A DNA stretch of 64,000 nt from a virus. Taxonomy: Duplodnaviria > Heunggongvirae > Uroviricota > Caudoviricetes. This document shows positions 22,514-63,826 of this stretch, one piece after another. The first letter of the stretch is position 1. Each line of letters starts with the position of its first letter. The stretch covers positions 42,086 to 106,085 of IMG/VR virus record IMGVR_UViG_3300037421_000080; one strand, given 5' to 3'. Under the pieces are notes generated by a model, which worked only from the letters and a program-made list of their open reading frames with translations, searched no databases and was not told the DNA's origin. Position numbers and translations under genes: made by a program.

Positions 22514-23371
22514 CTAATAGCACGCCGTGTCTACCACTTCCCCACCAGCCCTCGTGCTGAGAGGGATCGTAGCTGCTGCTCCTCTATATCCTATCCATCG
22601 TACTGACCCATCCACAAAGGCCCAATTCCCGCCATCTCTATGTGGGCTCCAGAAGTGGGTAGAAGCGCAGGGATCCTCGTACTCCCCAGGTCCGTACACA
22701 TTAGGACCGGGACATGGCCCGTAAATGGGCACGTTGCTCTGGGTCGCCATCAGGTTATCGTAATCGCTGAAGGCCCACCAGCCCCAATACAGCTCCGGAG
22801 AAGGCGGTCTCTCGCCGATCATCAGAGTGGTTGAGGCACCGTCCCTCACATCCAGCAGCCTGATCCCCTTCGCCAGACTGGTATCAAATGCTCCGTTCGT
22901 TGGAGTAGCATCGCAGTTCATCGTTGTGCCCACCACACCGCAGTAACTAGTCATTCCAAACGTGCCTGTCTCCGCCCAGCTCGTTCCAGAGAAGCCGGTC
23001 ACCAGATCACGCGGATCGCTGGGGCACAGGAGCAGTGGGATCGCATTGCCGGAGAAGACCATGAAGGATACGTCATCCAGAGTGTAGTCCTGGAGATCCT
23101 TTTGGTCGATGAAGGGCAGGAGCCTCCACATCCAGCCCCGCCTATCGGTGAAGAAGCCTGGGTCGTCCCTTGCTGGCGGAAAGTAGCTGAACTGGTCGTG
23201 ATAGGCGTGAACGGCCATTGCGAGCTGCTTCATGCTGCTTTGGCAGGTGCAGCGGTTGGCTGCTTCCCGTATCTTCTGGACGGCAGGCAGGAGCAGGCCG
23301 ATCAGGATCGCTATGATGGCGATGGAGACGAGAAGCTCGAATATCGTGAAGGCAGGTCGAAGGATAGGCAT
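22514..23371 (-). CDS. DUF1559 / prepilin-type N-terminal methylation-domain protein (Planctomycetes H-X9-DG family)
   Basis: N-term FTIFELLVSIAIIAILIGLLLPAVQKIREAANR = class III signal/pseudopilin helix. C-term H..HRDGGNWAFVDGSVRWI = H-X9-DG motif. Confidence 0.75.
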   Translation of the reverse strand: MPILRPAFTIFELLVSIAIIAILIGLLLPAVQKIREAANRCTCQSSMKQLAMAVHAYHDQFSYFPPARDDPGFFTDRRGWMWRLLPFIDQKDLQDYTLDDVSFMVFSGNAIPLLLCPSDPRDLVTGFSGTSWAETGTFGMTSYCGVVGTTMNCDATPTNGAFDTSLAKGIRLLDVRDGASTTLMIGERPPSPELYWGWWAFSDYDNLMATQSNVPIYGPCPGPNVYGPGEYEDPCASTHFWSPHRDGGNWAFVDGSVRWIGYRGAAATIPLSTRAGGEVVDTACY

Positions 23372-23459: not shown

Positions 23460-23489
23460 ATTGTATTTGATCGGGATAGGTTGGGTCAA
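23460..23489 (-). promoter_or_regulatory. sigma70-like promoter (TTGACC-18-TACAAT) for the DUF1559 gene
   Basis: On the minus strand: cgaTTGACCcaacctatcccgatcaaaTACAATag, about 90 nt upstream of the start codon. Confidence 0.4.
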
Positions 23490-24214
23490 TCGGTAGGAAC
23501 TTCTATCTTCAAACTCCACTCAAAGTGAGTCATCGGCAGCCATCCCTGGACGTAGACCGTATTGAAGAAGGCCGTGAAGGGAACAGGGAATTGCCAGTCC
23601 GCGAACTGTTTCAAGCCCTTGACCAGATCAGGATCCTCGGTGACTTTCGTTCCCAAGAGATCGTCCAGCTCTTGAGATATTTTGCTCTTCGTGACTCCAG
23701 ATTCAATCAATATGACATCAAGGATGGCAACTAGCCCGTAGAGGAGATGCTCCGTTCCGACATAGTTGTTGTTCCTACTGGAAGCGAAGTGCAAGGCATG
23801 CTCAATCACTTTTTTGGAAAGAGGCCCTTGGGGCAGCTTGGAGAAAATACCACCTTCCTGTTTTACAGGCAAGTAGCTCTCTGGCTTCCTTTCTCGGCAT
23901 GCCTTCTGAGTCAATTCTGGAGAGACGCCCATTCTTCGTAGGAGCGTTCCACCTACGCTGTTCTTGTCGTCACAGATGCCGTAGAGGATATGATTTGGTT
24001 GCACGGCGGACCAGCCCCATTCCTTGGCGACCTGGTTAGCCTTCTGCATCACCTTGCGGGCACGGTCGGTGAAGCGTTCGTACAAGTTTGTTCTCCGAAA
24101 ATGAGACCCGATCCCGCCAGCATATTTTCCCCTGCCGCGAAGCTGGTTTGGAGCCAGCTTTACTAGAACAGAGTTATTTCGCTGGCGGGGCAGCATGGTG
24201 AGGGTCCAGCCCAC
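23486..24214 (-). CDS. Clp N-terminal (Clp_N) double-repeat domain protein
   Basis: ERFTDRARKVM...EWGWSAVQPNHILYGI and a second repeat LSKKVIEHALHFASSRNNNYVGTEHLLYGLV match the ClpA/ClpC N-domain repeats. No AAA+ module. True start may be internal. Confidence 0.55.
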   Translation of the reverse strand: MGWTLTMLPRQRNNSVLVKLAPNQLRGRGKYAGGIGSHFRRTNLYERFTDRARKVMQKANQVAKEWGWSAVQPNHILYGICDDKNSVGGTLLRRMGVSPELTQKACRERKPESYLPVKQEGGIFSKLPQGPLSKKVIEHALHFASSRNNNYVGTEHLLYGLVAILDVILIESGVTKSKISQELDDLLGTKVTEDPDLVKGLKQFADWQFPVPFTAFFNTVYVQGWLPMTHFEWSLKIEVPTD

Positions 24215-24274: not shown

Positions 24275-25924
24275 TTATTCAACTGCAAAGTTCGAGATCA
24301 CAGTTGGCGTATCCGTGGAGAAACCTACACAATCAAGCATCCCCGAGTCGGATGGATCCGCCAGGGAGAATCCGTTGGAGGTCATGCCCACGACTACCAG
24401 CTTGGCCGGAATCCCCATCTTCTGGCGATACTGGTCCAATGCTTGGACTGGTTGGATTTCACCGGCCCATGTCTCGCTATCGGTGTAGATGCAGAACACA
24501 TCCACCTTCAGCTTCTGGTCCATCGCGTAGAGCATCGGTAGGGCGCAGTCGGTCCCGCCCATCGGTAGGGCAGCCATCGCCCGGCAAACATCGTCCAGCC
24601 GTTGGCGCGGGGAGATCGGCAGCGTGGTGATTCCGTTGTTGTACCCCATGCTGGAATACTGGCCCCGGCCCCCGTTGCGGCACCAGCCGTTGCTGGTGAA
24701 TGCGACGAAGGCGTGCTGGGGCTCCACCGCCGCAGTCACCAGGGCCATCGCCCCGCTGGCGACGCGGGCGCTCAGGAAAGTTCCGGCGATATGAGATCCT
24801 TCCATCGACCCGGAGACATCTAGGGCCAGCAGCCACCGCTTATTGGTGGGCTCTACAGAATCGAACGCCAGGTAAAAGGCGCCGTCTAGGGCGTCCACTA
24901 CCTGGGCCACTGGGCTCCATGTGTTCTGCCCCTTCTCTCCCCGGCCCTGAGCATAGGTTTTCAACGCCAAGAGAAGAGCCATCGGATGGACGCGGGCCTT
25001 GCGAATCCACTCCTTGTTTGACAGAGAGGAAACCACCTTGGCGGTCCCATCGGAGAGCGGATCCAGCAGACCAACTCGCGTCATGGTTGCCAGGTTGCGA
25101 ACCAGGGCCGTCAGGGGCATCTTCTCCAGCAAGGCTTCCCAGACGCTGGCTTCCGTCAGAAACTGCGTCGGGATGCACTCGCGGGGCAAGTTGTATTCCC
25201 GGATTAGCTTGCAGATCTCTTTCTTGTCCTTGGAGCGCTTGGCCTTTTCGAATGCCCAAATGATCTTGAGGGCATCTTCCGGATGCTCCTCCTCCCCGAT
25301 TCTCTCCCAGCCCTTGACTGCCCAGTGGAAGATGGAGTTCATCGGTTCGTTTGCCTGAGCATGGCAGAGGCGCAGAAGATCTCGATGGCTCCAGCCGTTG
25401 CGATTCTGGTACTTTACGACTCCATAGGCCAATTTATCCGGAGCCTGGGACGTGTACCATCCAGCGACCATCGAACGCAGGGAGCGTCCCCAGCCCCGGA
25501 AGTTCTGGACGGCCTCACAGAACTGGAAGATATGGGTTCCAATGCGGCAGATCTTCGGCAGAGCCTCCGCTACTCCGAACGTAGCTGCCTTTTTGTGGCC
25601 TGCTGCCATCGCCAGGGCGAAGATAGCTGGATCGTTTTTGGGGGCTTTGCCTCCATCGCTAATCTCCACGATCCGTTTGACAACGCGAGCTCCGTCTTCG
25701 TCGAGTAGCTTCTGGACGACCTTGGCGTTTTCGATGGTGAGCTTCTTCTCGGAAGCATAGAAGCTACCTTGGCTCGCGCCCAAAATGAGGAAGCGATCCA
25801 ACCGCTTCCAATCATCGACGGCGAAGGAGTAGCCCCCGGCCGAGTTCTGGACCATCGGCTTTCCCGGGATCGGCTCCGACTGAGGAGTAACGCGGGTGGA
25901 GAAGTGCTTGCTGTAAACGGTCAT
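24275..25924 (-). CDS. rsr: Ro60-like (Rsr) TROVE + vWA/MIDAS protein
   Basis: N-terminal TROVE block MVQNSAGGYSFAVDDWKRLDRFLILGASQGSFYASEK..VVKRIVEIS..PKNDPAIFALAMAA. C-terminal vWA with DVSGSMEG MIDAS. Start chosen at ATG 25924 (AAGGAGG SD) rather than the upstream in-frame Met. Confidence 0.75.
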   Translation of the reverse strand: MTVYSKHFSTRVTPQSEPIPGKPMVQNSAGGYSFAVDDWKRLDRFLILGASQGSFYASEKKLTIENAKVVQKLLDEDGARVVKRIVEISDGGKAPKNDPAIFALAMAAGHKKAATFGVAEALPKICRIGTHIFQFCEAVQNFRGWGRSLRSMVAGWYTSQAPDKLAYGVVKYQNRNGWSHRDLLRLCHAQANEPMNSIFHWAVKGWERIGEEEHPEDALKIIWAFEKAKRSKDKKEICKLIREYNLPRECIPTQFLTEASVWEALLEKMPLTALVRNLATMTRVGLLDPLSDGTAKVVSSLSNKEWIRKARVHPMALLLALKTYAQGRGEKGQNTWSPVAQVVDALDGAFYLAFDSVEPTNKRWLLALDVSGSMEGSHIAGTFLSARVASGAMALVTAAVEPQHAFVAFTSNGWCRNGGRGQYSSMGYNNGITTLPISPRQRLDDVCRAMAALPMGGTDCALPMLYAMDQKLKVDVFCIYTDSETWAGEIQPVQALDQYRQKMGIPAKLVVVGMTSNGFSLADPSDSGMLDCVGFSTDTPTVISNFAVE

Positions 25925-25968
25925 GCTAGCCTCCTTCGGCTGTAAAAGGAGAAAGAGAAGTATTCCCA

Positions 25969-26260
25969 TGGACAAAAACTTGTATCAAGGGGGTATCTTA
26001 ACAGGATAACCTTGACAACAAACGGCCCATAGGGAATGTCAAAAAGCGAGGACAAGTTTTTGCAATGGGGTACATTTTAGCAGATAACCCATTACTCCGG
26101 CCCTCACGAATACGCGATCAAATAGTGCGGACAAAAATTGCCGTTGGGTATGCCGGGACTTTCACCCAGCTGTCTTTTTGCAGAAGATAACCAACATGCG
26201 TCCGGCCCACACAAGCTTCGTTGTTTCAAAATAGCACGGACAAAAGTAGATGTCCGGTTT
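25969..26260. repeat. tandem array of ~78-bp imperfect repeat units (3 full + 1 partial) with conserved blocks GGACAA..TTG..GGGTA..GATAACC..CGGCCC
   Basis: Units start about 25972, 26052, 26130 and 26238. Noncoding, immediately 5' of rsr on the minus strand. Confidence 0.5.
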
Positions 26261-26291
26261 TACTGTGCAGCCATCACACTCCAGCTAGTTA

Positions 26292-26337
26292 CCCAGCTGC
26301 CGGGAATCGAACCCGGTCTAGTCCTTTTTCAGAGGAG
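26292..26337 (-). ncRNA. tRNA 3'-portion-like element: anticodon-type stem-loop (CU-GAA-AA, Phe-like), 4-nt variable region, T-arm (CCGGG-TTCGATT-CCCGG) and 7-nt 3' acceptor strand, but no 5' acceptor/D-arm partner
   Basis: Manual fold of the minus strand. Candidate attP-type tRNA fragment, tRNA pseudogene or Y-RNA module. Confidence 0.3.
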
Positions 26338-26362
26338 AACAGACACCAAACGGCCCGTGCAT

Positions 26363-26453
26363 TGGGGGCAATTGGGATCGAACCGATAATCCTGGACTTC
26401 GACTCGGTTTCCCGAATAAGCTAGTGTTCAGGTGCCCTACCAGGGCTGCCCCC
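26363..26453 (-). ncRNA. tRNA-like structured RNA candidate (possible Y-RNA-like tRNA mimic)
   Basis: 91 nt with a perfect 7-bp acceptor-like terminal stem GGGGGCA/TGCCCCC, a T-arm (ATCGG-TTCGATC-CCAAT, one C.A mismatch) abutting the 3' strand, a D-like hairpin GCCC-tGGta-GGGC and an internal GAAA tetraloop hairpin. No anticodon arm. Confidence 0.35.
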
Positions 26454-26839
26454 TGAAAATCCTCGGTAACTTTGGAAAGCAGATCCAGCGTAGGTTTTCA
26501 ACAAAGCAAGGCGCAGATAAAGTTCGCCAGTGGGTTTTACTGAATTTCTCTACGCTTTCTCCGATTCCCTCAGTCGCCGAAGTTGGGAAATCTCCCGCTC
26601 ATCAGAGATAATCCACTGACATCGACCCCGTACCTTGCAGTCGCGGTTCTGGGGGATGCTCCCAGCAGTCCAAGGTTATGAGCCTCGAATGGGCACTGGC
26701 CCAACCGCAGTCAATTGGCGGACAAGGTAATGCTAGAGGAGTAACAGCCAAGGTAATCCTCTAACTCCGGCCCGCCAGTATTCCATTATAGTATGACACC
26801 GAAACGGCGAAAAGGTTATGGGTTTCTTTCCTTTTTTTA

Positions 26840-27025
26840 TTATCGGCTCTGCTCCAAATCAGCCAAACGACGGTTGAAGAAAGCGATCGTCGTCTTCAAG
26901 TTCAAGATCTCCATCTGCTTCTTACGCTCTGGGTACAGCAGATTCTCTAGTCTTTGCACTTCCTTCTCCAGCTCGTCGACTCTGCGTCGGTGGGGGCAAT
27001 TAGGATCGCCGCAATCTCCGAACAT
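26840..27025 (-). CDS. small Cys/His zinc-binding protein
   Basis: 61 aa, CGDPNCPH motif. Confidence 0.4.
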   Translation of the reverse strand: MFGDCGDPNCPHRRRVDELEKEVQRLENLLYPERKKQMEILNLKTTIAFFNRRLADLEQSR

Positions 27026-36250: not shown

Positions 36251-36321
36251 AGGCCCCCAGAAGGATTTGAACCCTCGCATCCTGGATACAAGCCAGGCGC
36301 TCTACCTCTGAGCTATAGGGG
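36251..36321 (-). tRNA. tRNA-Thr (anticodon UGU)
   Basis: Manual fold. Acceptor GCCCCUA/UGGGGGC 7 bp, D-arm GCUC-AGAGGUA-GAGC, anticodon arm CCUGG-CUUGUAU-CCAGG, variable AUGC, T-arm GAGGG-UUCAAAU-CCUUC, discriminator C. CCA not encoded. Confidence 0.8.
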
Positions 36322-36397
36322 CAAACAGCGGAGGCTAGTAACCAGCCGCCCCCGCTGAGTCCTGTACAGACACAATCTGAACAGAGACCGGTTCGTA

Positions 36398-42357: not shown

Positions 42358-43707
42358 CAGAAGCCAAACCCCCGAGCTAGTTCTGCTTTCTTCAAGCGCC
42401 GATGCCCCATTTCAATGTATTCCTCTGATAAGTCTATCCCGATAAACCTCCTACCGCGAGTGATCGCTACAATGCCTGCGGTTGCCGATCCCGAGAATGG
42501 ATCGCAGATAATCGCTGGCACCGGATCACTTGCGTTGCATTTGCAAGTGGGCTCCCATCCAATTGTCTTCGTGGTCGAAACGTGACGTTCGAGGTCACGA
42601 TTGCCGATTACAGAACCTAGGGTAGTTTTGGTTGAAGTTCCGGACCTTTGGAATCTTGGATCCAATTGTCCTATTTTTCTGTTTTTGAGTATCTCTTTGA
42701 TCTTGCTTTCCCTTCCCGGCCGAGTAGGAGTGCGAGTCTTTTCTAGTATTCGCTTCCACGGGGATCCACAGGCTTTGCAAATTCCTTTTTGGCTAGATCC
42801 CGCCAAAATACAGCGCAACGCAAGCTTTTTGGGGAAGGGAGCGAAGTGGGCCTCCTTCAAGCCGCCTTCATGAGACATGTGCCAGACATCACGACAGAAA
42901 CTTTTGTTTTGGTCGTTTGGATCATGCTTGGTTCCTATTCCTCCGGTAATGAACCCATTCTTTTTCAACTCGACCTTCTTGTTGTTGCCGGCACTTCTCT
43001 CCCAATTCCAGTTGCTCTTTGACCTCTCCATAATCGCCACGTGGTCGAAGTAGTATTTAGACTTCTTGGCGAATAGGAATATGTGTTCGTGGGATTTAGT
43101 ACAGCGATTCGTTACGCTCTCAGGCATGGCCCCGGCTTTGCTCCAGATGATTTCTTGGCGGAGGATCCAACCGTCAGCTTGCATTGCGAAAGCAAATCGC
43201 CAAGGAACGCCTATTAGGTTTCCCGATTGTAAATCACCGAGCAAAGGCAGATGATTGTCGTTATCCTCTCCATACCTTCTACCAACATTTCCACTTTGTT
43301 TGGTTCTTTTTGAAGAAGAATTGTAGCTGTCACCGAGATTCACCCAACATGTCCCAGTGGGATGAAGAACTCTACAAATCTCCCGAAATATCTCGACTAG
43401 CTTTTGTACGAATTCTTCGGGAGTTTCTTCTTGGCCCAGTTCAAGTGGTTTATCCGGATGATCGTCGGGGAGATAACTACGAAGACGCCAGTCAATAAGG
43501 GGGACTAGTAACGACACAATTTACACTTTCATCAGGTAAAGTTTTCAACATGTCGATAACGTCCCCCTGGAGCAACCTACTATGCTTCGTTCGGCGCTCT
43601 TTCATGATATCACCTCCTTTCTGGAGCGTAGAGTGCTTGGTCTTCCTTACGATGCCTTTGGTGCCCACACACCCTCCCGAATTTCGTGCCAAGGGGCTTT
43701 GTTCCAC
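42357..43707 (-). pseudogene. DNA N6-/N4-methyltransferase (DPPY, ParB-MTase type) interrupted by a +1/-1 frame change right after the SPPY motif
   Basis: N-piece 43492..43707 ends ..DESVNCVVTSPPY*. Continuation 42357..43517 in another frame carries ...DPFSGSATAGIVAITRGRRFIGIDLSEEY (motif I region). C5 run and TATTGAC at the junction. Confidence 0.55.
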
Positions 43708-45143
43708 CAGTTACCTTCCGGGAAGACCGGTGAGCAGTCCACCTCCGCCTTCAGAGGCACTATTATCCAGGGCCAAGCCTTCGGGAGATCCACCGTCATC
43801 ACCTGCTTAGTCAGATTGAGGAACTCCTGGGTCTCCTCCTCCGGCACGTCGCCCAGCACGCAGTCGTGCACCTGGGACACGATCAGGGACCTCATCTTCC
43901 TCTTCCGCAGTATCTTCTGGATCCGGATGATGCACCAGAGCAGGCAGTGGAATGCTGGGCCCTGCACAAGGTAGTTGAGTATCTGATTCTTGGTGTATAA
44001 TCCTTCTACCACGAACCCAGTTATCAGTCGGAAGTAGCCGTTCTTGCGGTAGTCTTCCAGTACCAGGTCGCTCTTCTCGCGATAGACGTGGAAGTCTTCC
44101 TCAAACTTCAGCTCCATCTTTCTGAGATGGTACTCGAAAGTTCCAGGCAGAGGCGGCGGGGCATCCTTCTTGGTGCTACATGGTCCTAGCTCGGAGATGC
44201 CCTTCTGGGATAGCCACTCTTTTAGTGCTATCCCCTCGACTTCCATCCCAGCATCGTCCAGGCATGCCCAGACTGCCTTGGCCATCTTCTTGTAGTACGA
44301 ACCGTAGAGCTTGGGAAACACGAATCCATCCTTGCCCTTGTACCTCGTTTTTTTAGTGATCTGACTACCCTTGCACAGGAACATCTCCGCTGCCTTGTCG
44401 CGATGGATATCCGCCTTCGGGTCAGAGGCGTAGTGAATCATCTTGGGGTCCTCCCAAATGCAGGCCGCAAGATTCCACTCATGTGAGCCAAAGTCTATTT
44501 CCGCGAATCGACAGCCAGAGCGGGGGATGAATGCTTGCCTTGTTATCTTTCCCTGATCGCTATCTCGACCGGGGCAATTCATCAAATTGGGAGATTTTGA
44601 CGAGCTCCTATAACTACGAGCTCCACCTTTCTCTTCCTCGTCCCCCCCAGTGAGATTGAAGAAGGCATGGACCAGACTATCCACTGCCTCCCGACGGATG
44701 CTCTTGAGATAGTCGCAGGAGGTCTTGTAATCACCAGCCTTCTCCATCTCACGGAGGAAGGGAATGTTCATCTTGGCGAGAGCTGCCTTGTTCACCTGCG
44801 GCCTGGCGCCCTGCTTCAGCTTCCCCTCGCTGTCGTAGCTCTTCTCGGTGTAGCTCTGGCATTTGTAACCGAGGACGTTGAAGAGCATATGTCCCAGCTG
44901 CACGGGGCTGTCCAGGTTGGCCTTCTGCCCGTACACCTTCTGCCACTTGGTGAAGATCTCGTCTTGCTTGAGCTTGTCCTGGAGACGGCGGATTTTGGAT
45001 TCGGTCCAGGATATAGCACGCTCAAGGTACTCTGTGTCGACACGGATTCCGGCTGCTTCTACCTCCGCTAGCACAATCGAGCCTTCGTGAAAGAGCTGAT
45101 ATGCGGTAGGAGAGGCGACGACTTGTTTCATTGTTTTGGCCAC
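43647..45143 (-). CDS. family A DNA polymerase, polymerase (fingers/palm) domain only
   Basis: Motif A EIDFGSHEWNLAA, motif B TRYKGKDGFVFPKLYGSYY, motif C VHDCVLGDV. Confidence 0.75.
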   Translation of the reverse strand: MAKTMKQVVASPTAYQLFHEGSIVLAEVEAAGIRVDTEYLERAISWTESKIRRLQDKLKQDEIFTKWQKVYGQKANLDSPVQLGHMLFNVLGYKCQSYTEKSYDSEGKLKQGARPQVNKAALAKMNIPFLREMEKAGDYKTSCDYLKSIRREAVDSLVHAFFNLTGGDEEEKGGARSYRSSSKSPNLMNCPGRDSDQGKITRQAFIPRSGCRFAEIDFGSHEWNLAACIWEDPKMIHYASDPKADIHRDKAAEMFLCKGSQITKKTRYKGKDGFVFPKLYGSYYKKMAKAVWACLDDAGMEVEGIALKEWLSQKGISELGPCSTKKDAPPPLPGTFEYHLRKMELKFEEDFHVYREKSDLVLEDYRKNGYFRLITGFVVEGLYTKNQILNYLVQGPAFHCLLWCIIRIQKILRKRKMRSLIVSQVHDCVLGDVPEEETQEFLNLTKQVMTVDLPKAWPWIIVPLKAEVDCSPVFPEGNWWNKAPWHEIREGVWAPKAS

Positions 45144-46835: not shown

Positions 46836-48083
46836 TCATGTTTTCGCTAGGTCTTTCGGGAAAAGGTCAATTCCCATCTTCTTCGCCTGCCTCACCCCCA
46901 CGAACCATTCCAGCAAGGCATCGGTTCCGCAGTACATCAGCATCTGATCCAGCGGCACCTCTCGTATCCGGTTATGCTCATTCGACCCACTAGACTTGAA
47001 GAAGGGCTTCATCCTCCCTTTACCCGCCACATAGCCCAGGTTCACAAATGTCTGGAACTCAAGACTCGCCACGCCCATCCTGTTGTCCAGCACATGGGCT
47101 CCAATCATCCCACACCACACCCAGTTCTTCACCCGCACTCCCTGCCGGAGCAGCCAGCGGATTTCGTGTTTGATGTTGAAGCCGATCTTGGGCACGTCGG
47201 AGCGGATGAAGTCCAGCGTCGCCTCTATCGCCCGCCCCTGCCACGGATAGGCTATCGAGGTCCGCCCGTCGCTTATGGCACAGCACAGGATGAAGGAGTC
47301 AGCTCTATCCGGCTTCAGGGGGCTGTTCTCGATGTCCCACGCCAGCGGCCTGCCGCTCTCCATCATCTCCTGGATCGCGTCTGCTGCCTCGTCGTCCTTG
47401 TAGATCCGCCTGACCTTGGATGGATAGTCGGGCAACGCTTTCCAGGGCTTCTCCATCTTCTTGCAGGCAGCCTCCAGGTGCCTCTCGAACAGGAGCTTCC
47501 TTACCTCATTCTGCTTCTTGCTGCCATAGTCGTCTCGGAGGATGTAGGAGGGATGCCAGGTGGGACACACCCAGGCATTGATCTGCTGACACGGTATCCG
47601 CCAGCCATCCCAGCGGGAAATCATGCCCACGTTGCTGCCCCAGAGCCAGCCCAGGATTGACTTCACTGCCGAGCCGCCCAGGGGGATGATTACGTTGGGC
47701 TTTAGCTCCTGGATGGTTTTTACAACATTGGGCCTGCAAAAACTGATCTCTTTATCAGTGGGGGTGCGGTTCTTGCCTTCGCGTGTCATGGGTCGGCAGA
47801 TGCAACTGTTGTATAGCCAGCAATCTCGGTCCATGTCCACATCGAATTTCTCTAACGTCTCTTTGAGGAGCTGCCCAGACTTGCCAATGAAGGGACGGTT
47901 CTGTTCAGATTCGTTGTACCCAGGGGCTTCGCCACATATAAGTATTCGTTTATACCCCTCCCCAAAGACTTTCATCTTCGGGGACTTGCAGTGACGATAG
48001 AGTCCGCACGAGCCACACTGAGCAACTAGCGGAATTGTGACCCTGCCAGAATCAGCGAGGGGCTGGGGGAAGAAGCCTCTCAT
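46836..48083 (-). CDS. DNA polymerase N-terminal module: UDG family-4-like domain fused to 3'-5' exonuclease domain
   Basis: ILICGEAPGYNESEQNRPFIGKSGQLL (UDG-4 motif) then LAWDIEN (Exo I, DxE). Ends where the pol-domain gene begins. Confidence 0.6.
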   Translation of the reverse strand: MRGFFPQPLADSGRVTIPLVAQCGSCGLYRHCKSPKMKVFGEGYKRILICGEAPGYNESEQNRPFIGKSGQLLKETLEKFDVDMDRDCWLYNSCICRPMTREGKNRTPTDKEISFCRPNVVKTIQELKPNVIIPLGGSAVKSILGWLWGSNVGMISRWDGWRIPCQQINAWVCPTWHPSYILRDDYGSKKQNEVRKLLFERHLEAACKKMEKPWKALPDYPSKVRRIYKDDEAADAIQEMMESGRPLAWDIENSPLKPDRADSFILCCAISDGRTSIAYPWQGRAIEATLDFIRSDVPKIGFNIKHEIRWLLRQGVRVKNWVWCGMIGAHVLDNRMGVASLEFQTFVNLGYVAGKGRMKPFFKSSGSNEHNRIREVPLDQMLMYCGTDALLEWFVGVRQAKKMGIDLFPKDLAKT

Positions 48084-50980: not shown

Positions 50981-51458
50981 CTATTGGTTTCAATTTGAAT
51001 TTCTGGGCGATTCTCTTGATCTTGCTCTCCCGACCCTTGAGCCAGATCTCATTCTGGTGACTGTTTCGCTTCTTCCTTCTCCTCGCTAGCTCCTCTGGAG
51101 AGCAATCCAGCAGGAACAACTTTAGCTTTACACACTCGATGTTCTGGACTACATCAAGAAAGCTCTGACCGAAGAGACGATCCCCCTCGAACAATACCGT
51201 CCAATCAGGGTTGTGTTTGGCCCAATGATGGAGAACCTTCACTGCATCGGGCTGAACAGACATAGATAGCCGATCCGTCCCAGCGAAGACATTCTCTCCC
51301 CGGTAGTCGCCCAGGACGAACACCTTGGCATCTTCTATGCGGCCGTAGACTAGGGAGCCGATCTTCTCATGCTTGATAGGGCCGAGGAGCTCGATGAGAG
51401 AACGCATCAGCGTGGTCTTGCCGCAGCCAGGATTGCCTCCGATGCCGATCACGATCAT
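50934..51458 (-). CDS. P-loop kinase-like protein (Walker A GGNPGCGKTT; nucleotide/DNA-base kinase candidate)
   Basis: 174 aa, N-terminal P-loop, small kinase-fold size. First gene of the enzyme cassette. Confidence 0.55.
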   Translation of the reverse strand: MIVIGIGGNPGCGKTTLMRSLIELLGPIKHEKIGSLVYGRIEDAKVFVLGDYRGENVFAGTDRLSMSVQPDAVKVLHHWAKHNPDWTVLFEGDRLFGQSFLDVVQNIECVKLKLFLLDCSPEELARRRKKRNSHQNEIWLKGRESKIKRIAQKFKLKPIDGKEIRSQIKELLNG

Positions 51459-52390
51459 CTGGTGAGATCCCCCATCCGTATTTTCTTGGCTCGGGCTAGC
51501 TCCTCAGCAGCAGAGCCGCAGGAAACCATGCCTTGTCTGTAATAACAAACAAGGCTGATCCGTTCAAAGGCTCCCTCTATCCCAATCAGTGGGGTGTTCC
51601 CATGCCACTCATGGACATCCGCCAAGAGCAGACTTCGTGTCCTCATATCCACCGCTACTCGGTACTTCGGAAAGCAGAGGTAACAGCCAGAGTAGTGCCC
51701 TGCCCGGAGAGCCGTCATAACCCCGAAGCCCTCGGTCAGATCACCCTTGTCTTTATGCAAAGCTGTGACCCAATTCTTGTTCACTGTGATTGTGGTGAAG
51801 GCGGTCTTATGAATCACGAAGTCTGGAGAGGTCTGCTTCACTACCTTCAGCTGGGCAGCATAGCGGCCTGGAACGTTCTTCTTGAATGCCTCATCTATTG
51901 CTCGGATCAAGGGCATGGCAGCTTGGAACTTCTCCGGTTGGTATAGATTGAAGGCTGTCAGGCGACAGTAGGGAATGCGAGGATAGCGATCATAGAAGCC
52001 GATGATGCCACTATGGACCGCTTGAGCGTAGTTCGTGTTGGAGACAGTGCCATCTTGTTTCATCGGTCGAAGTCTGGTCCCATCCATGACAGCAGCCTTT
52101 TTGGCTCGATTCCCTTTCCGCTCAGAGACCTTCTCTGGAATGATCCCAGCAGCCATCCCTCTGTTCTCACTGGTGCTTGCTGCTTTCCGTAGACCGGGGA
52201 AGGCAGCCTTGCAAGCAGGAGCAGGGAGAATGTTATGGAGATGGATGAGGAGAACATCACCATTGGGCTTGAGGACTTTCACATCGTCCTCTGCGATGAG
52301 CCGATCGTAGTGAGATTCGTCGAGGAAGGTGCCTGCCAGTTTATCTATTTCCTCATCAGGCAGAGCGTGATTCAACTTTATCGTTTTCAT
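51455..52390 (-). CDS. hypothetical protein with HxD...H...R pattern (possible 2OG-Fe(II)/TET-JBP-like dioxygenase)
   Basis: ALHKDKGD (HxD) then HEWHGNTP and a distal R (RISLVCYYR). Weak, by-eye only. Confidence 0.3.
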   Translation of the reverse strand: MKTIKLNHALPDEEIDKLAGTFLDESHYDRLIAEDDVKVLKPNGDVLLIHLHNILPAPACKAAFPGLRKAASTSENRGMAAGIIPEKVSERKGNRAKKAAVMDGTRLRPMKQDGTVSNTNYAQAVHSGIIGFYDRYPRIPYCRLTAFNLYQPEKFQAAMPLIRAIDEAFKKNVPGRYAAQLKVVKQTSPDFVIHKTAFTTITVNKNWVTALHKDKGDLTEGFGVMTALRAGHYSGCYLCFPKYRVAVDMRTRSLLLADVHEWHGNTPLIGIEGAFERISLVCYYRQGMVSCGSAAEELARAKKIRMGDLTR

Positions 52391-54607: not shown

Positions 54608-55774
54608 TCAGATGAAGCGGTCGAACTCGCCCACTGATACTATCGGCATCCCAGCCTCCTGCTTCCTCTTGATCTCGATGGCTTCCAGATTTGTATTGTG
54701 CCTCAAGCAGTGGAAGTTGCAGTGTTTGGAAGGATCAAGATACTCCATCACCCGCTGACGCAGTGCACCATCCCAGGCCTCCTTGAAACTCTGGTTGACT
54801 ATACCCCCTACCTTCATCCTCTCCTTGCCACGCCAGTAGGGGCAGACGAATATCCCGGTTGGAGTAACAGTTGTTCTCAGATGGGTTGATGGGCATTTGC
54901 AATAGTCTTTGGATTGAGGCACCTCAACTCCATCCAGGGAGGGTTGTAGGTTGATCGCACGGATCACCTTGAACTTGTCTGTCTCCAGAGAGTCTAGGGA
55001 GGCAACTTCCCGAGCAGCCTGCTCCATCAAGTGCTTTGGGTGCTTCACCAAAGCATGATCCACGCCTTCCCGAAACTGGTAGGAGGGCTTGACCTCAAAG
55101 TAGTCGCACCCGATCTCCCTGGCCAACAGGGCTGCGGCATAGATCTCCCCGATGTTGCTCTCAATATCCCTGCCATCTGCCGGAGTCTGAATCAAGAAGG
55201 AGAAGCCCAGCTTGCCCTTCTTCTTGGCAGCCAGCAACCTCATATTGCTGACAACTTTGTCAAACTTGCTCTTCCCAGTTCCTCCCTTGGTTGGCCTGAG
55301 TACGCTAAACATCCGCTCCGTAGCAGCATCCATCGAGACACGAGTCCACTGTGCATACTCGGAGATAGGCCCCAAATATCTGTCGATGAAGCTGCCATTT
55401 GTTGTGATCCCGATGTGCACATCATTCTTCCCCAGCAGCTCGATAAGCTCTCCGGACTTTCGGTGGGCCAGGGGCTCACCTCCACCAATCAAAATAACTG
55501 CTTTCACTCCGCAGTCAATGAATTCTTGTCCTAGCTTCATCAAGCGTTCATCGGAGAAGCGGTTACCTAGAGCGATCACATCTTCGCTAATGCAACCAGG
55601 GCAGGCCAAATCACAAATCGCTGTTGGGTCTAGCTCCACAACAAACGGTGAATCGTTTCCCTCTTCCCAATCTGTATTGCTGATTCTCTCCAAGACTGGG
55701 AGCTGGTAGAGCTTGTTATTGAGCTTCATGATATCAGACATTTTGCTCTTTCTCCTCCTTTGATTGTCAGCCAC
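54608..55774 (-). CDS. radical SAM enzyme (with C-terminal Cys-rich auxiliary region)
   Basis: CDLACPGC (CxxxCxxC) and VILIGGGEPL glycine-rich SAM motif. C-terminal CKCP...CPYW...CNFHC cysteines. Confidence 0.8.
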   Translation of the reverse strand: MADNQRRRKSKMSDIMKLNNKLYQLPVLERISNTDWEEGNDSPFVVELDPTAICDLACPGCISEDVIALGNRFSDERLMKLGQEFIDCGVKAVILIGGGEPLAHRKSGELIELLGKNDVHIGITTNGSFIDRYLGPISEYAQWTRVSMDAATERMFSVLRPTKGGTGKSKFDKVVSNMRLLAAKKKGKLGFSFLIQTPADGRDIESNIGEIYAAALLAREIGCDYFEVKPSYQFREGVDHALVKHPKHLMEQAAREVASLDSLETDKFKVIRAINLQPSLDGVEVPQSKDYCKCPSTHLRTTVTPTGIFVCPYWRGKERMKVGGIVNQSFKEAWDGALRQRVMEYLDPSKHCNFHCLRHNTNLEAIEIKRKQEAGMPIVSVGEFDRFI

Positions 55775-63667: not shown

Positions 63668-63826
63668 TTTCTCCTCTGGGACAGGATAAAGGCCGTCAAG
63701 GTCGGCCGTTGAGCAGGGACAAAAACGGAGTTGGGGCGGGCTTGTCCCAGAAGCCCTTTTCAGGATTCTGCTGGCTGGCCGACCAGCAGGCCTTAGCCCC
63801 CTCCCTTAGCCGCCGTAACCTTTCTT

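What the first reader, a model, noticed from the sequence alone, without database searches (positions are those of the whole stretch)
25969..26260. Tandem array of four ~78-bp units with conserved sequence blocks in the 870-bp noncoding island 5' of rsr
Units begin about 25972, 26052, 26130 and 26238. Each contains GGACAA(A/G)..TTG..GGG(G)TA, and the first three also contain (A)GATAACC..N..CGGCCC at fixed spacing. The periodicity and block conservation suggest repeated small-RNA genes such as a Y-RNA-like array, reiterated promoter/operator units, or a replication origin with large iterons. The fourth unit carries a perfect dyad CGGACA-N9-TGTCCG. A related dyad GGGACAA-N19-TTGTCCC recurs at 63697-63729, upstream of another minus-strand gene.
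Basis: seen in the sequence. Interest (0 to 1): 0.6.

Follow-up and report, generated by a model that had tools for sequence, protein, structure and literature searches.

The report
Y RNA gene cluster beside Ro60
The repeated blocks are the conserved stems of five or six small "Y RNA" genes, partners of the Ro60 RNA-binding protein, lined up on the minus strand just upstream of a phage-borne Ro60 (rsr) gene; this is a new example of a known kind of system.

Summary
The conserved blocks are real and far beyond chance, but they are not a DNA tandem repeat. Read on the minus strand (the rsr strand), GGACAA and CGGCCC become UUGUCC and GGGCCG. These are the two strands of the bulged Ro60-binding helix of Y RNAs.

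A covariance model built only from 75 relatives in other genomes finds six modules in the 64-kb window. All lie on the minus strand within 25964-26779:
- Y1 26779-26714
- Y2 26633-26509 (weak)
- Y3 26362-26232 (YrlA-like, with a permuted tRNA-like domain)
- Y4 26214-26123
- Y5 26109-26044
- Y6 26034-25964, ending 40 nt before the rsr ATG

Y1 and Y2 were missed. Two degenerate tRNA-like elements lie between modules.

The six copies keep 95% of stem pairs, with compensatory changes at 13 of 19 pairs. In 160 rsr loci from bacteria and viral contigs, 216 of 218 model hits lie on the rsr strand, with up to 7 per locus.

The iteron and operator readings are rejected, and the dyad near 63.7 kb is unrelated. 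The module consensus (GGGCCGAAG..UGGGUUAUC..CCCA..CUUGUCC) closely matches the nematode sbRNA consensus. Expression and Rsr binding are untested.

The parts
24275..25924 (-). rsr, a Ro60 orthologue (549 aa). The ATG at 25924 is preceded by GGAGG.
   Evidence: Pfam TROVE (E 3e-48) and vWA_Ro60 (E 5e-62). A 549-aa protein 100% identical is in the public collection, named 60 kDa SS-A/Ro ribonucleoprotein.
25964..26034 (-). Sequence GGGCCGUU..GGUUAUC..CCCCUUGA..UUUUGUCC. It ends 40 nt before the rsr ATG.
   Evidence: Model R2, built without window sequences: 29.1 bits, E 1.2e-4 over the whole window. Fold -25.8 kcal/mol, z -3.6.
26044..26109 (-). Sequence GGGCCGGAGUAAUGGGUUAUC..CCCCAUUGCAAAAACUUGUCC.
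   Evidence: R2 51.8 bits, E 5e-10. Rfam sbRNA RF01656 20.5 bits. Fold z -3.6.
26123..26214 (-). The insertion carries a degenerate T-arm-like hairpin, GGGUGAAAGUCCCGGCA.
   Evidence: R1 30.1 bits although not in the seed. R2 33.1 bits, E 1.4e-5. The hairpin is 76% identical to the T arm of Y3 (family D4).
26232..26362 (-). Ro-binding stem GCACGGGCCG/UUGUCCGUGC and upper stem GGUGUCUG/CCGGACAUC. The permuted tRNA-like domain has a T arm CCGGGUUCGAUUCCCGG, a 7-bp acceptor-like hairpin CAGCUGG-GUAA-CUAGCUG, and a degenerate D arm GUGU-GAUGGCU-GCAC.
   Evidence: R2 28.3 bits, E 1.8e-4. T arm matched by tmRNA/tRNA-type models. Collinear alignment with YrlA-type modules of relatives. Fold.
26363..26452 (-). 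tRNA-like element B, in normal (unpermuted) order. It has a 7-bp acceptor stem GGGGGCA/UGCCCCC, a T loop UUCGAUC and an abnormal anticodon region. Weak call.
   Evidence: Read from the sequence; acceptor and D stems appear in the MFE fold, z -2.6. ARAGORN calls it only at a 60% threshold. No Rfam tRNA hit at E<=10.
26509..26633 (-). Y2, a candidate sixth module (weak). Sequence GGGGUCGAUGUCAGUGGAUUAUC..CCCACUGGCGAACUUUAUCUGC. The C-G pair of the bulged helix is replaced by U-A. A longer basal stem GCAAGGU/GCCUUGC extends it to 26503-26638.
   Evidence: R2 18.3 bits, E 0.041 over the whole window and 7.7e-4 in the 1.2-kb search without filters. The MFE fold keeps the basal and upper stems.
26640..26709 (-). 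tRNA-like element A, a compact cloverleaf filling the gap between Y1 and Y2. The anticodon-type loop is CUCAUAA. The D and T loops are not canonical.
   Evidence: ARAGORN calls tRNA-Met(cat) at an 80% threshold but not at default. MFE equals the centroid and is a cloverleaf, -29.5 kcal/mol, z -2.3.
26714..26779 (-). Sequence GGCGGGCCGGAGUUAGAGGAUUACC..UCCUCUAGCAUUACCUUGUCCGCC.
   Evidence: R2 54.5 bits, E 1.2e-10. Rfam sbRNA RF01656 32.1 bits, E 2e-4. Fold z -3.8.
26785..26790 (-). TATAAT, a -10-like hexamer 6 nt upstream of the 5' end of Y1. There is no good -35. This is a possible promoter of the array and is inferred only.
   Evidence: Sequence read. The hexamer-pair scan did not list it.

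Best explanation
The 915-nt gap upstream of rsr encodes, on the rsr strand, five clear Y RNA modules and one weaker one, separated in two places by degenerate tRNA-like elements.

Shown here:
- Each module pairs its 5' and 3' ends into a stem. The stem contains the conserved helix GGGCCG(G/U)/UUGUCC, with G-U pairs and a bulged C. This is the same layout as the Ro60-binding helix GGUCCGA/UUGACC of animal Y RNAs.
- Above it sits a second, covarying stem. It is capped by (G)GUUAUC in Y4-Y6, with variants in Y1-Y3.
- The structure is conserved, and the motif follows rsr in strand and position in other genomes.

Inferred from established knowledge of Y RNAs (Chen et al. 2014, PMC4201824; Thermus phage phiLo, PMC12135203):
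- Each RNA binds the ring protein Rsr/Ro60 through the bulged helix.
- Its distal loop or tRNA-like domain recruits or gates a partner such as host PNPase, changing which structured RNAs are degraded.
- Six different distal ends would give six differently specialised particles.

Also inferred:
- The array is transcribed with rsr from a promoter near 26790.
- It is cut into individual RNAs, with the tRNA-like elements serving as RNase P/Z-type processing signals. Precedents are the D. radiodurans Yrn2-tRNA-Yrn1 precursor and the M. smegmatis YrlA-YrlB precursor.

The window itself looks like part of a large phage, probably of a planctomycete. The system would therefore act on host RNA metabolism during infection.
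For: 1. rsr is confirmed.
2. The composite motif occurs 5 times in 810 nt on the rsr strand, against 1.5 expected in the whole window.
3. Model R2 was built from 75 modules of other genomes with no window sequence. In 128 kb of window sequence (both strands) it finds only six hits. All lie on the minus strand at 25964-26779, with E from 1e-10 to 0.04.
4. Among the six window copies 94.6% of stem cells pair, against 39-48% when partners are slid by 1-3 columns. Thirteen of 19 pairs have changes on both sides, and 0 of 500 shuffles reach this.
5. Among the 75 relatives 91.2% pair against 38-46% slid, and 16 of 19 pairs have double changes.
6. In 80 genome loci 73 of 75 hits are on the rsr strand. 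In 80 viral contigs 143 of 143 are. The median distance is about 300-360 nt upstream of rsr.
7. The Rfam nematode sbRNA (Y RNA homologue) model hits Y1 (32.1 bits, E 2e-4) and Y5. It exceeds its gathering score on modules of relatives.
8. Y3 has a T arm, an acceptor-like hairpin and a D-like arm in the permuted YrlA order. It aligns collinearly with relatives' modules that give sub-threshold Rfam YrlA hits.
9. Each module folds better than its shuffles, with z from -1.9 to -3.8 for Y1 and Y3-Y6.
10. No ORF was called in the gap on the public contigs.
11. Phage context is indicated by PHROG and Pfam hits.
Against: - There are no expression, end-mapping or Rsr-binding data.
- Rfam Y_RNA (RF00019) and YrlA (RF02553) give no hit in the window even at E<=10. 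The sbRNA hits are below that family's gathering score.
- Y2 is weak (18.3 bits) and both tRNA-like elements fail default tRNA detection.
- Alignments A3 and A5 were fitted to the model, which favours pairing. The slid control only partly corrects this.
- The R1 seeds were chosen partly by requiring the motif and flanking complementarity.
- Model E-values are rough because calibration was shortened.
- The nearest Rsr relatives are only about 65% identical, so no orthologous copy of each individual module is available.
- Promoter, co-transcription, processing and the PNPase partner are inferences.
Confidence: 0.85

Rival explanations
1. The modules are not released as free small RNAs. They form a long structured 5' leader of the rsr mRNA, and Rsr binds this leader to control its own synthesis or mRNA stability.
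For: Y6 ends only 40 nt before the rsr ATG. No convincing terminator separates the array from rsr. The only terminator-like hairpin, at 26256-26237, is explained by the Y3 stems. All modules are on the rsr strand.
Against: In the three species studied experimentally, the RNAs upstream of rsr are processed into stable Rsr-bound Y RNAs (PMC4201824). In relatives, modules also occur downstream of rsr: 12 of 73 same-strand genome hits and 35 of 143 viral hits. A leader cannot explain those. The tRNA-like elements between modules suggest processing. The two readings are not exclusive.
Confidence: 0.1
2. The blocks are DNA-level repeats: iterons of a replication origin, or reiterated operator or promoter units bound by a protein.
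For: Short blocks recur at roughly 80-nt spacing in three units. One promoter-like hexamer pair lies inside Y6, at 25988-25959 on the minus strand.
Against: No tandem repeat is detected. The copies share only the helix-forming blocks. The rest differs but keeps complementarity, with 13 of 19 pairs showing compensatory changes among the six copies. A DNA-binding site would not preserve pairing. The motif follows the rsr strand in 216 of 218 cases elsewhere. Promoter-like sites are not enriched: 3 found against 1.5 +/- 1.1 expected.
Confidence: 0.02
3. The region is a decayed tRNA gene island, made of pseudogenes left from the tRNA clusters that flank rsr in related phages, with no present function.
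For: A T-arm sequence and two degenerate cloverleaf-like elements are present. Relatives carry dense tRNA arrays next to rsr.
Against: The six modules match a non-tRNA hairpin model with the Ro-binding helix, which tRNA genes lack. Pairing is maintained by compensatory change, which indicates selection. Decay would not explain the invariant GGGCCG/UUGUCC.
Confidence: 0.03

Closest known systems
Deinococcus radiodurans Yrn1/Yrn2 locus (Chen et al. 2000; Chen et al. 2014, PMC4201824)
   Same: Several ncRNAs are encoded just upstream of rsr on the same strand. Both strands of the animal-type Ro60-binding helix are retained. A tRNA element lies between Y RNAs in one precursor (Yrn2-tRNA-Asp-Yrn1). 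One RNA carries a T arm and another is a plain long hairpin.
   Different: Here there are six modules instead of two accepted Y RNAs, in a phage-like genome. The intervening tRNA elements are degenerate rather than a real tRNA gene. The tRNA-like domain of Y3 is in the YrlA (permuted) order, not the Yrn1 order. The Rfam Deinococcus_Y_RNA model gives no hit in the window.
YrlA/YrlB of Salmonella, Mycobacterium smegmatis and mycobacteriophages (Rfam RF02553; PMC4201824)
   Same: They lie within 4 kb of rsr on the same strand. One RNA per locus (Y3 here) carries a T arm, an acceptor-like hairpin and a D arm in permuted order. The 7-bp acceptor-like stem resembles M. smegmatis YrlA. Further short hairpin Y RNAs accompany it, and processing from one precursor upstream of rsr is reported in M. 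smegmatis.
   Different: The Ro motif here is GGGCCG(G/U) with a recognisable 3' strand, not GNCGAAN0-1G with only the 5' strand. The D arm of Y3 is degenerate. RF02553 gives no hit in the window at E<=10 and only 30-51 bits (gathering score 69) on relatives.
Animal Y RNAs and nematode stem-bulge RNAs (Rfam RF01656; Kowalski & Krude 2015, PMC4726728)
   Same: The conserved layout is nearly the same. The RF01656 consensus is ..CGGUCCGGaG....UGGGUUAUC...CCCA....CACCAACUUGACCG... The consensus of the modules here is ..CGGgCCGaAG....UGGGUUAUC...CCCA....CaacaACuUGcCCG... Both include the UUAUC motif that the review reports as needed for sbRNA activity in DNA replication assays.
   Different: The host is a phage or bacterium, not an animal. 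Genes are clustered and probably co-transcribed, not single RNA polymerase III genes ending in a U tract. Window modules score 32.1 and 20.5 bits, below the gathering score of 38. The Rfam Y_RNA model does not hit. A role in chromosomal DNA replication is not expected.
Thermus phage phiLo Ro60 with Yrl1/Yrl2 (PMC12135203)
   Same: A phage-encoded Ro60 has Y RNA-like genes directly upstream. Binding to the phage Ro60 and formation of a complex with host PNPase were shown in vitro.
   Different: phiLo has two RNAs identified through a CGAA motif. Here there are six modules with the GGGCCG/UUGUCC helix plus tRNA-like elements. Nothing has been tested biochemically here.

Membership tests
Bacterial/phage Y RNAs (Rsr-associated ncRNAs, sensu Chen et al. 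2014) | Encoded within about 4 kb of a Ro60/TROVE gene, on the same strand | tested here: met
   All six modules are on the minus strand, 40-855 nt upstream of the rsr ATG.
Bacterial/phage Y RNAs (Rsr-associated ncRNAs, sensu Chen et al. 2014) | 5' and 3' ends pair into a long stem carrying the conserved Ro60-binding motif (GGUCCGA-like, bulged helix) | tested here: met
   GGGCCG(G/U)/UUGUCC with a bulged C is present in Y1 and Y3-Y6. Y2 has the compensated variant GGGUCGA/UUUAUCU. Stem pairs are 94.6% paired among the six copies.
Bacterial/phage Y RNAs (Rsr-associated ncRNAs, sensu Chen et al. 2014) | Structure conserved by compensatory change across species | tested here: met
   Among 75 modules from 49 loci of several phyla, 16 of 19 pairs have double changes and 91% pair, against 38-46% when slid. 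Caveat: the alignment was fitted to the model.
Bacterial/phage Y RNAs (Rsr-associated ncRNAs, sensu Chen et al. 2014) | Bound by Rsr in vivo and dependent on Rsr for accumulation | not testable with these tools
   This needs immunoprecipitation or Northern blots in wild type and an rsr deletion.
YrlA (Rfam RF02553) | Score at or above the Rfam gathering cut-off (69 bits) | tested here: not met
   No RF02553 hit in 25800-27000 at E<=10 or in the whole window at gathering threshold.
YrlA (Rfam RF02553) | Permuted tRNA-like domain: T arm, acceptor-like hairpin, D arm | tested here: inconclusive
   Y3 has a canonical T arm (GGGUUCGAUUCCC), a 7-bp hairpin and a 4-bp D-like stem whose loop contains GG. 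The D arm lacks the conserved GUAGCUCA..GAGC seen in relatives.
YrlA (Rfam RF02553) | GNCGAAN0-1G motif near the 5' end | tested here: not met
   Modules carry GGGCCGG or GGGCCGU. Only Y2 (GUCGAUG) comes close.
Nematode sbRNA / animal Y RNA (Rfam RF01656, RF00019) | Score at or above the Rfam gathering cut-off | tested here: not met
   RF01656 scores 32.1 bits (Y1) and 20.5 bits (Y5) against a gathering score of 38. RF00019 gives no hit at E<=10. Modules of relatives do reach 38.1-42.8 bits on RF01656.
Iterons / replication origin | Several near-identical direct DNA repeats at regular spacing | tested here: not met
   No tandem repeat is found. The best direct-repeat family is 30 nt at 63-73% identity with spacing 79 and 109. 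Variation is compensatory for RNA pairing.
tRNA genes | Detected by ARAGORN or the Rfam tRNA model at standard thresholds | tested here: not met
   The only tRNA in the window is at 36252-36322. Elements A and B are called only at 80% and 60% thresholds.

The most novel reading that the evidence does not exclude
The short modules here, and their many relatives next to rsr in bacteria and phages, may be true homologues of animal Y RNAs and nematode sbRNAs rather than convergent look-alikes. They share the Ro-binding helix, the adjoining stem and the UGGGUUAUC motif. If so, that motif, known so far from eukaryotic DNA replication assays, would be an ancient Ro60-linked feature. Phages carrying rsr with arrays of up to seven Y RNAs inside tRNA islands would be plausible vehicles for spreading the Ro60-Y RNA pair. 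In addition, degenerate tRNA-like elements may punctuate such arrays as processing signals.
Probability: 0.35. Interest if true: 0.6.

Novelty: new member of a known kind. Interest (0 to 1): 0.4.

Why it matters
Y RNAs next to bacterial and phage rsr genes are known, so the basic finding is ordinary once the strand is read correctly. Three points give it some value.
1. Standard annotation misses these genes. No Rfam family reaches its threshold in the window.
2. The array is large (five or six modules) and sits in a phage-like genome. Six different distal domains on one Ro60-binding scaffold offer a compact system for asking what the variable end of a Y RNA recruits.
3. The module consensus shared with 200-odd relatives is very close to the nematode sbRNA consensus, including UUAUC. 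[quoted passage not shown] These sequences make that statement testable, along with the function of the UUAUC motif outside eukaryotic replication.

Tried and rejected
- Tandem Repeats Finder on 25800-27000 found nothing.
- The Rfam scan of the whole window at gathering threshold found only one tRNA.
- Rfam Y_RNA, YrlA and Deinococcus_Y_RNA gave no hit in the region at E<=10.
- My first flank-complementarity filter for modules was off by one base and returned junk. It was corrected.
- A search for closer relatives, to obtain orthologous copies of each module, failed. The best Rsr relatives are about 65% identical. The two public contigs carrying the identical protein are the same sequence with 0-1 mismatch. 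Two of three look-ups of near relatives returned no DNA, and the third has a different context.
- A DNA search of the array against GenBank phages found no match.
- The dyad at 63716-63748 was rejected as a seventh module, because it has no model hit and no GGGCCG strand.
- CUGAUGAG inside Y2 was considered as a hammerhead core and rejected. No Rfam hammerhead hit appears, and no GAAA follows the would-be stem II.
- The tRNA-like element A does not align convincingly with the element after the first module of the Gemmataceae relative L001.
- The reviews by Sim & Wolin (2018), Boccitto & Wolin (2019) and Sim et al. (2020) were not available. I therefore could not check whether the similarity to sbRNAs or large Y RNA arrays has been described there.

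Full report
**What is in the sequence**

The gene at 24275-25924 (minus strand) is a Ro60 orthologue. It has Pfam TROVE and vWA_Ro60 domains, and an identical 549-aa protein is on record as a 60 kDa SS-A/Ro ribonucleoprotein. Between its ATG and the stop of the next minus-strand ORF (26840) lie 915 nt without a called gene.

On the + strand GGACAA occurs at 25970, 26050, 26129 and 26238, GATAACC at 26005, 26083 and 26186, and CGGCCC at 26023, 26098 and 26203. There are further copies at 26720 (GGACAA) and at 26351 and 26768 (CGGCCC).

This is not a tandem DNA repeat. Tandem Repeats Finder reports nothing. The best direct-repeat family is 30 nt at 63-73% identity with spacings of 79 and 109.

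**Reading the other strand**

On the minus strand, which is the rsr strand, the blocks read GGGCCG ... (G)GUUAUC ... UACCCC ... UUGUCC. GGGCCG and UUGUCC can pair as G-C, G-C, G-U, C-G, a bulged C, then G-U. This is the layout of the Ro60-binding helix of Y RNAs (GGUCCGA/UUGACC; PMC4201824).

The composite GGGCCG-N20-140-TTGTCC occurs five times on the minus strand within 810 nt. About 1.5 are expected in the whole window on both strands. Each unit folds into a stem, internal loop and stem hairpin, with z-scores from -1.9 to -3.8.

A permissive Rfam scan gave no Y_RNA or YrlA hit. It matched the nematode stem-bulge RNA family RF01656, which are Y RNA homologues, at 26779-26715 (32.1 bits, E 2e-4) and 26108-26046 (20.5 bits). 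Both are below the gathering score of 38. It also matched a tRNA/tmRNA-type T arm at 26316-26300.

**Comparative test**

I fetched 80 rsr loci from bacterial genomes and MAGs. They include Gemmataceae, Chloroflexota, Armatimonadota, Myxococcota, Verrucomicrobiota and others. Many carry the same composite motif just upstream of rsr on the same strand.

A first covariance model was built from 16 short modules, three of them from the window. It found 75 matches in these loci, 73 on the rsr strand. On that alignment 91.2% of stem cells pair, against 38-46% when the partner is slid by 1-3 columns. Sixteen of 19 pairs show changes on both sides, and no shuffle of 500 reaches the observed values.

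A second model, R2, was built only from those 75 foreign sequences. Searched over the whole window on both strands, it returned exactly six hits, all on the minus strand inside the gap:

| Module | Coordinates | Bits | E-value |
|---|---|---|---|
| Y1 | 26779-26714 | 54.5 | 1.2e-10 |
| Y5 | 26109-26044 | 51.8 | 5.2e-10 |
| Y4 | 26214-26123 | 33.1 | 1.4e-5 |
| Y6 | 26034-25964 | 29.1 | 1.2e-4 |
| Y3 | 26362-26232 | 28.3 | 1.8e-4 |
| Y2 | 26633-26509 | 18.3 | 0.041 |

This detection does not depend on the window's own sequences.

Among the six window copies 94.6% of stem cells pair (39-48% slid), and 13 of 19 pairs have compensatory changes. Copies that diverge in sequence while keeping pairing point to selection on an RNA structure, not on a DNA site.

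Caveats. The alignments are fitted to the model. The first seeds were picked partly by motif and flanking complementarity. The E-values are rough.

**Anatomy, 5' to 3' on the minus strand**

- **Promoter-like hexamer.** A TATAAT hexamer lies at 26790-26785, six bases before Y1. It has no good -35, so a promoter is only inferred.
- **Y1** is a 66-nt hairpin.
- **tRNA-like element A** fills 26709-26640. Its minimum-energy fold is a cloverleaf with an anticodon-type loop CUCAUAA. ARAGORN calls it only at a lowered threshold.
- **Y2** is the weak candidate. Its helix reads GGGUCGA/UUUAUCU, that is, the C-G pair replaced by U-A with the bulged C kept. It has a long basal stem and the upper stem GUCAGUGG/CCACUGGC followed by AUUAUC.
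- **tRNA-like element B** fills 26452-26363. It has a 7-bp acceptor stem and a UUCGAUC loop but an aberrant anticodon region.
- **Y3** follows directly. It contains a T arm (CCGGGUUCGAUUCCCGG), a 7-bp hairpin with a GUAA loop and a D-like arm, in the permuted order that defines YrlA RNAs. It aligns collinearly with modules of relatives that give sub-threshold Rfam YrlA hits.
- **Y4** carries a degenerate copy of that T arm (family D4).
- **Y5 and Y6** are plain hairpins.
- **rsr.** Y6 ends 40 nt before the rsr ATG, and no convincing terminator intervenes.

Unit 4 is the 3' end of Y3. Its 'perfect dyad' (actually N8) is made of the 3' strands of Y3's two stems. The second dyad is really at 63716-63748. 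It has no model match and is an ordinary intergenic hairpin.

**Context**

The window is probably part of a large phage or similar element.
- PHROG and Pfam hits include a UvsX-like recombinase, a clamp loader, a split family-A DNA polymerase, a DnaB-like helicase, a DNA methyltransferase and a DpdA/queuine-transglycosylase-like protein.
- Most large ORFs have no match.
- A planctomycete-type DUF1559 gene and the nearest Rsr relatives (Planctomycetota, Gemmataceae) suggest a planctomycete host. This is an inference.

Ro-like proteins are annotated in 358 GenBank phage records, none above 48% identity to this one.

In 80 IMG/VR viral contigs with an rsr relative, R2 finds 143 modules in 61 loci, all on the rsr strand. 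Loci carry one to seven modules, and four loci have five or more. Modules lie mostly within a few hundred nt upstream of rsr, and some just downstream. Six modules is therefore at the high end but not unique. In many relatives the rsr-Y RNA cluster sits inside tRNA gene islands.

**Mechanism**

Shown here: the structure, its conservation, and its strict association with rsr.

Taken from established knowledge:
- Y RNAs bind Ro60/Rsr through this helix and use the other end to tether or gate partners.
- The best characterised partner is PNPase, in the D. radiodurans and Salmonella RYPER complex (PMC4201824; PMC4726728).
- A phage Ro60 with two upstream Y-like RNAs forms such a complex with host PNPase in vitro (PMC12135203).
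- Upstream Y RNAs are cut from polycistronic precursors in M. smegmatis, and in D. radiodurans a tRNA lies between them.

I therefore infer one transcript from about 26780 through rsr. It would be processed at the tRNA-like elements and module ends into six Rsr-binding RNAs with different distal domains, which would retarget host RNA decay during infection. Expression, processing, binding and partners are all untested.

**Comparison and novelty**

This is a new member of a known kind. It differs from Rfam YrlA: it has no hit, it carries GGGCCG with both helix strands instead of GNCGAAN0-1G, and it has a degenerate D arm. It resembles the D. radiodurans class, in which both strands of the animal-type helix are kept.

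One point seems worth a specialist's look. The consensus of these modules is CGGgCCGaAG....UGGGUUAUC...CCCA....CaacaACuUGcCCG. It nearly coincides with the Rfam sbRNA consensus. The sbRNA model exceeds its own gathering score on modules from Armatimonadota, Verrucomicrobiota, Gemmataceae and two viral contigs.

GGUUA(U/C)C is present in 57 of 75 relatives. From my own memory of the sequences, not checked here, human Y4 and Y5 carry the same GGUCCGA..GUGGGUUAU layout.

A review states that bacterial Y RNAs are not homologous with vertebrate ones, and that UUAUC matters for sbRNA replication activity. I found no paper in the held library linking the two, but the main reviews of bacterial Y RNAs were not available.

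Noticed in passing
window 26640-26709 (-) and 26363-26452 (-): Two degenerate tRNA-like elements fill gaps between Y RNA modules. Element A folds as a cloverleaf with the loop CUCAUAA. Element B has a 7-bp acceptor stem and a UUCGAUC loop. Neither passes standard tRNA detection. They may be processing signals or decayed tRNA genes.
   Followed up: partly
window 23486-24214 (-) and 22514-23371 (-): Directly downstream of rsr on the same strand lie a protein with Clp_N repeats and a planctomycete-type DUF1559/N-terminal-methylation protein. Both are unusual cargo for a phage-like region and hint at the host.
   Followed up: no
window 43647-45143 (-) and 46836-48083 (-): A family-A DNA polymerase appears split into two ORFs about 1.7 kb apart. 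Each matches a different part of PHROG 17.
   Followed up: no
window 51455-52390 (-) and 54608-55774 (-): A queuine tRNA-ribosyltransferase/DpdA-like protein and a radical SAM protein may be 7-deazaguanine DNA modification genes.
   Followed up: no
On the minus strand it is followed by a second, terminator-like hairpin (GGCCG-N7-CGGCC then UUUAU). It has no similarity to the Y RNA model.
   Followed up: yes
L062, L068, L023, L127, L101 (whole loci); L109 6433-6657: In related bacterial and viral contigs rsr and its Y RNA modules sit inside dense same-strand tRNA gene arrays. One viral contig also carries a permuted tmRNA nearby.
   Followed up: partly
L016 3390-3459 and 2555-2626; L072 561-630; L001 3108-3171; L129 4766-4838; L143 2723-2796: The Rfam nematode sbRNA model RF01656 scores at or above its gathering cut-off (38.1-42.8 bits) on bacterial and phage sequences next to rsr. 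These would be reported as nematode sRNAs by a routine Rfam annotation.
   Followed up: partly
window about 26600-26610 (-), inside Y2: CUGAUGAG, the hammerhead-core heptamer plus G, occurs in the Y2 loop. No Rfam hammerhead family hits at E<=10 and the rest of the core is missing, so it is probably chance.
   Followed up: yes
window 36252-36322 (-): A single standard tRNA-Thr(UGU) gene (68.6 bits) is the only canonical tRNA in the 64-kb window.
   Followed up: no
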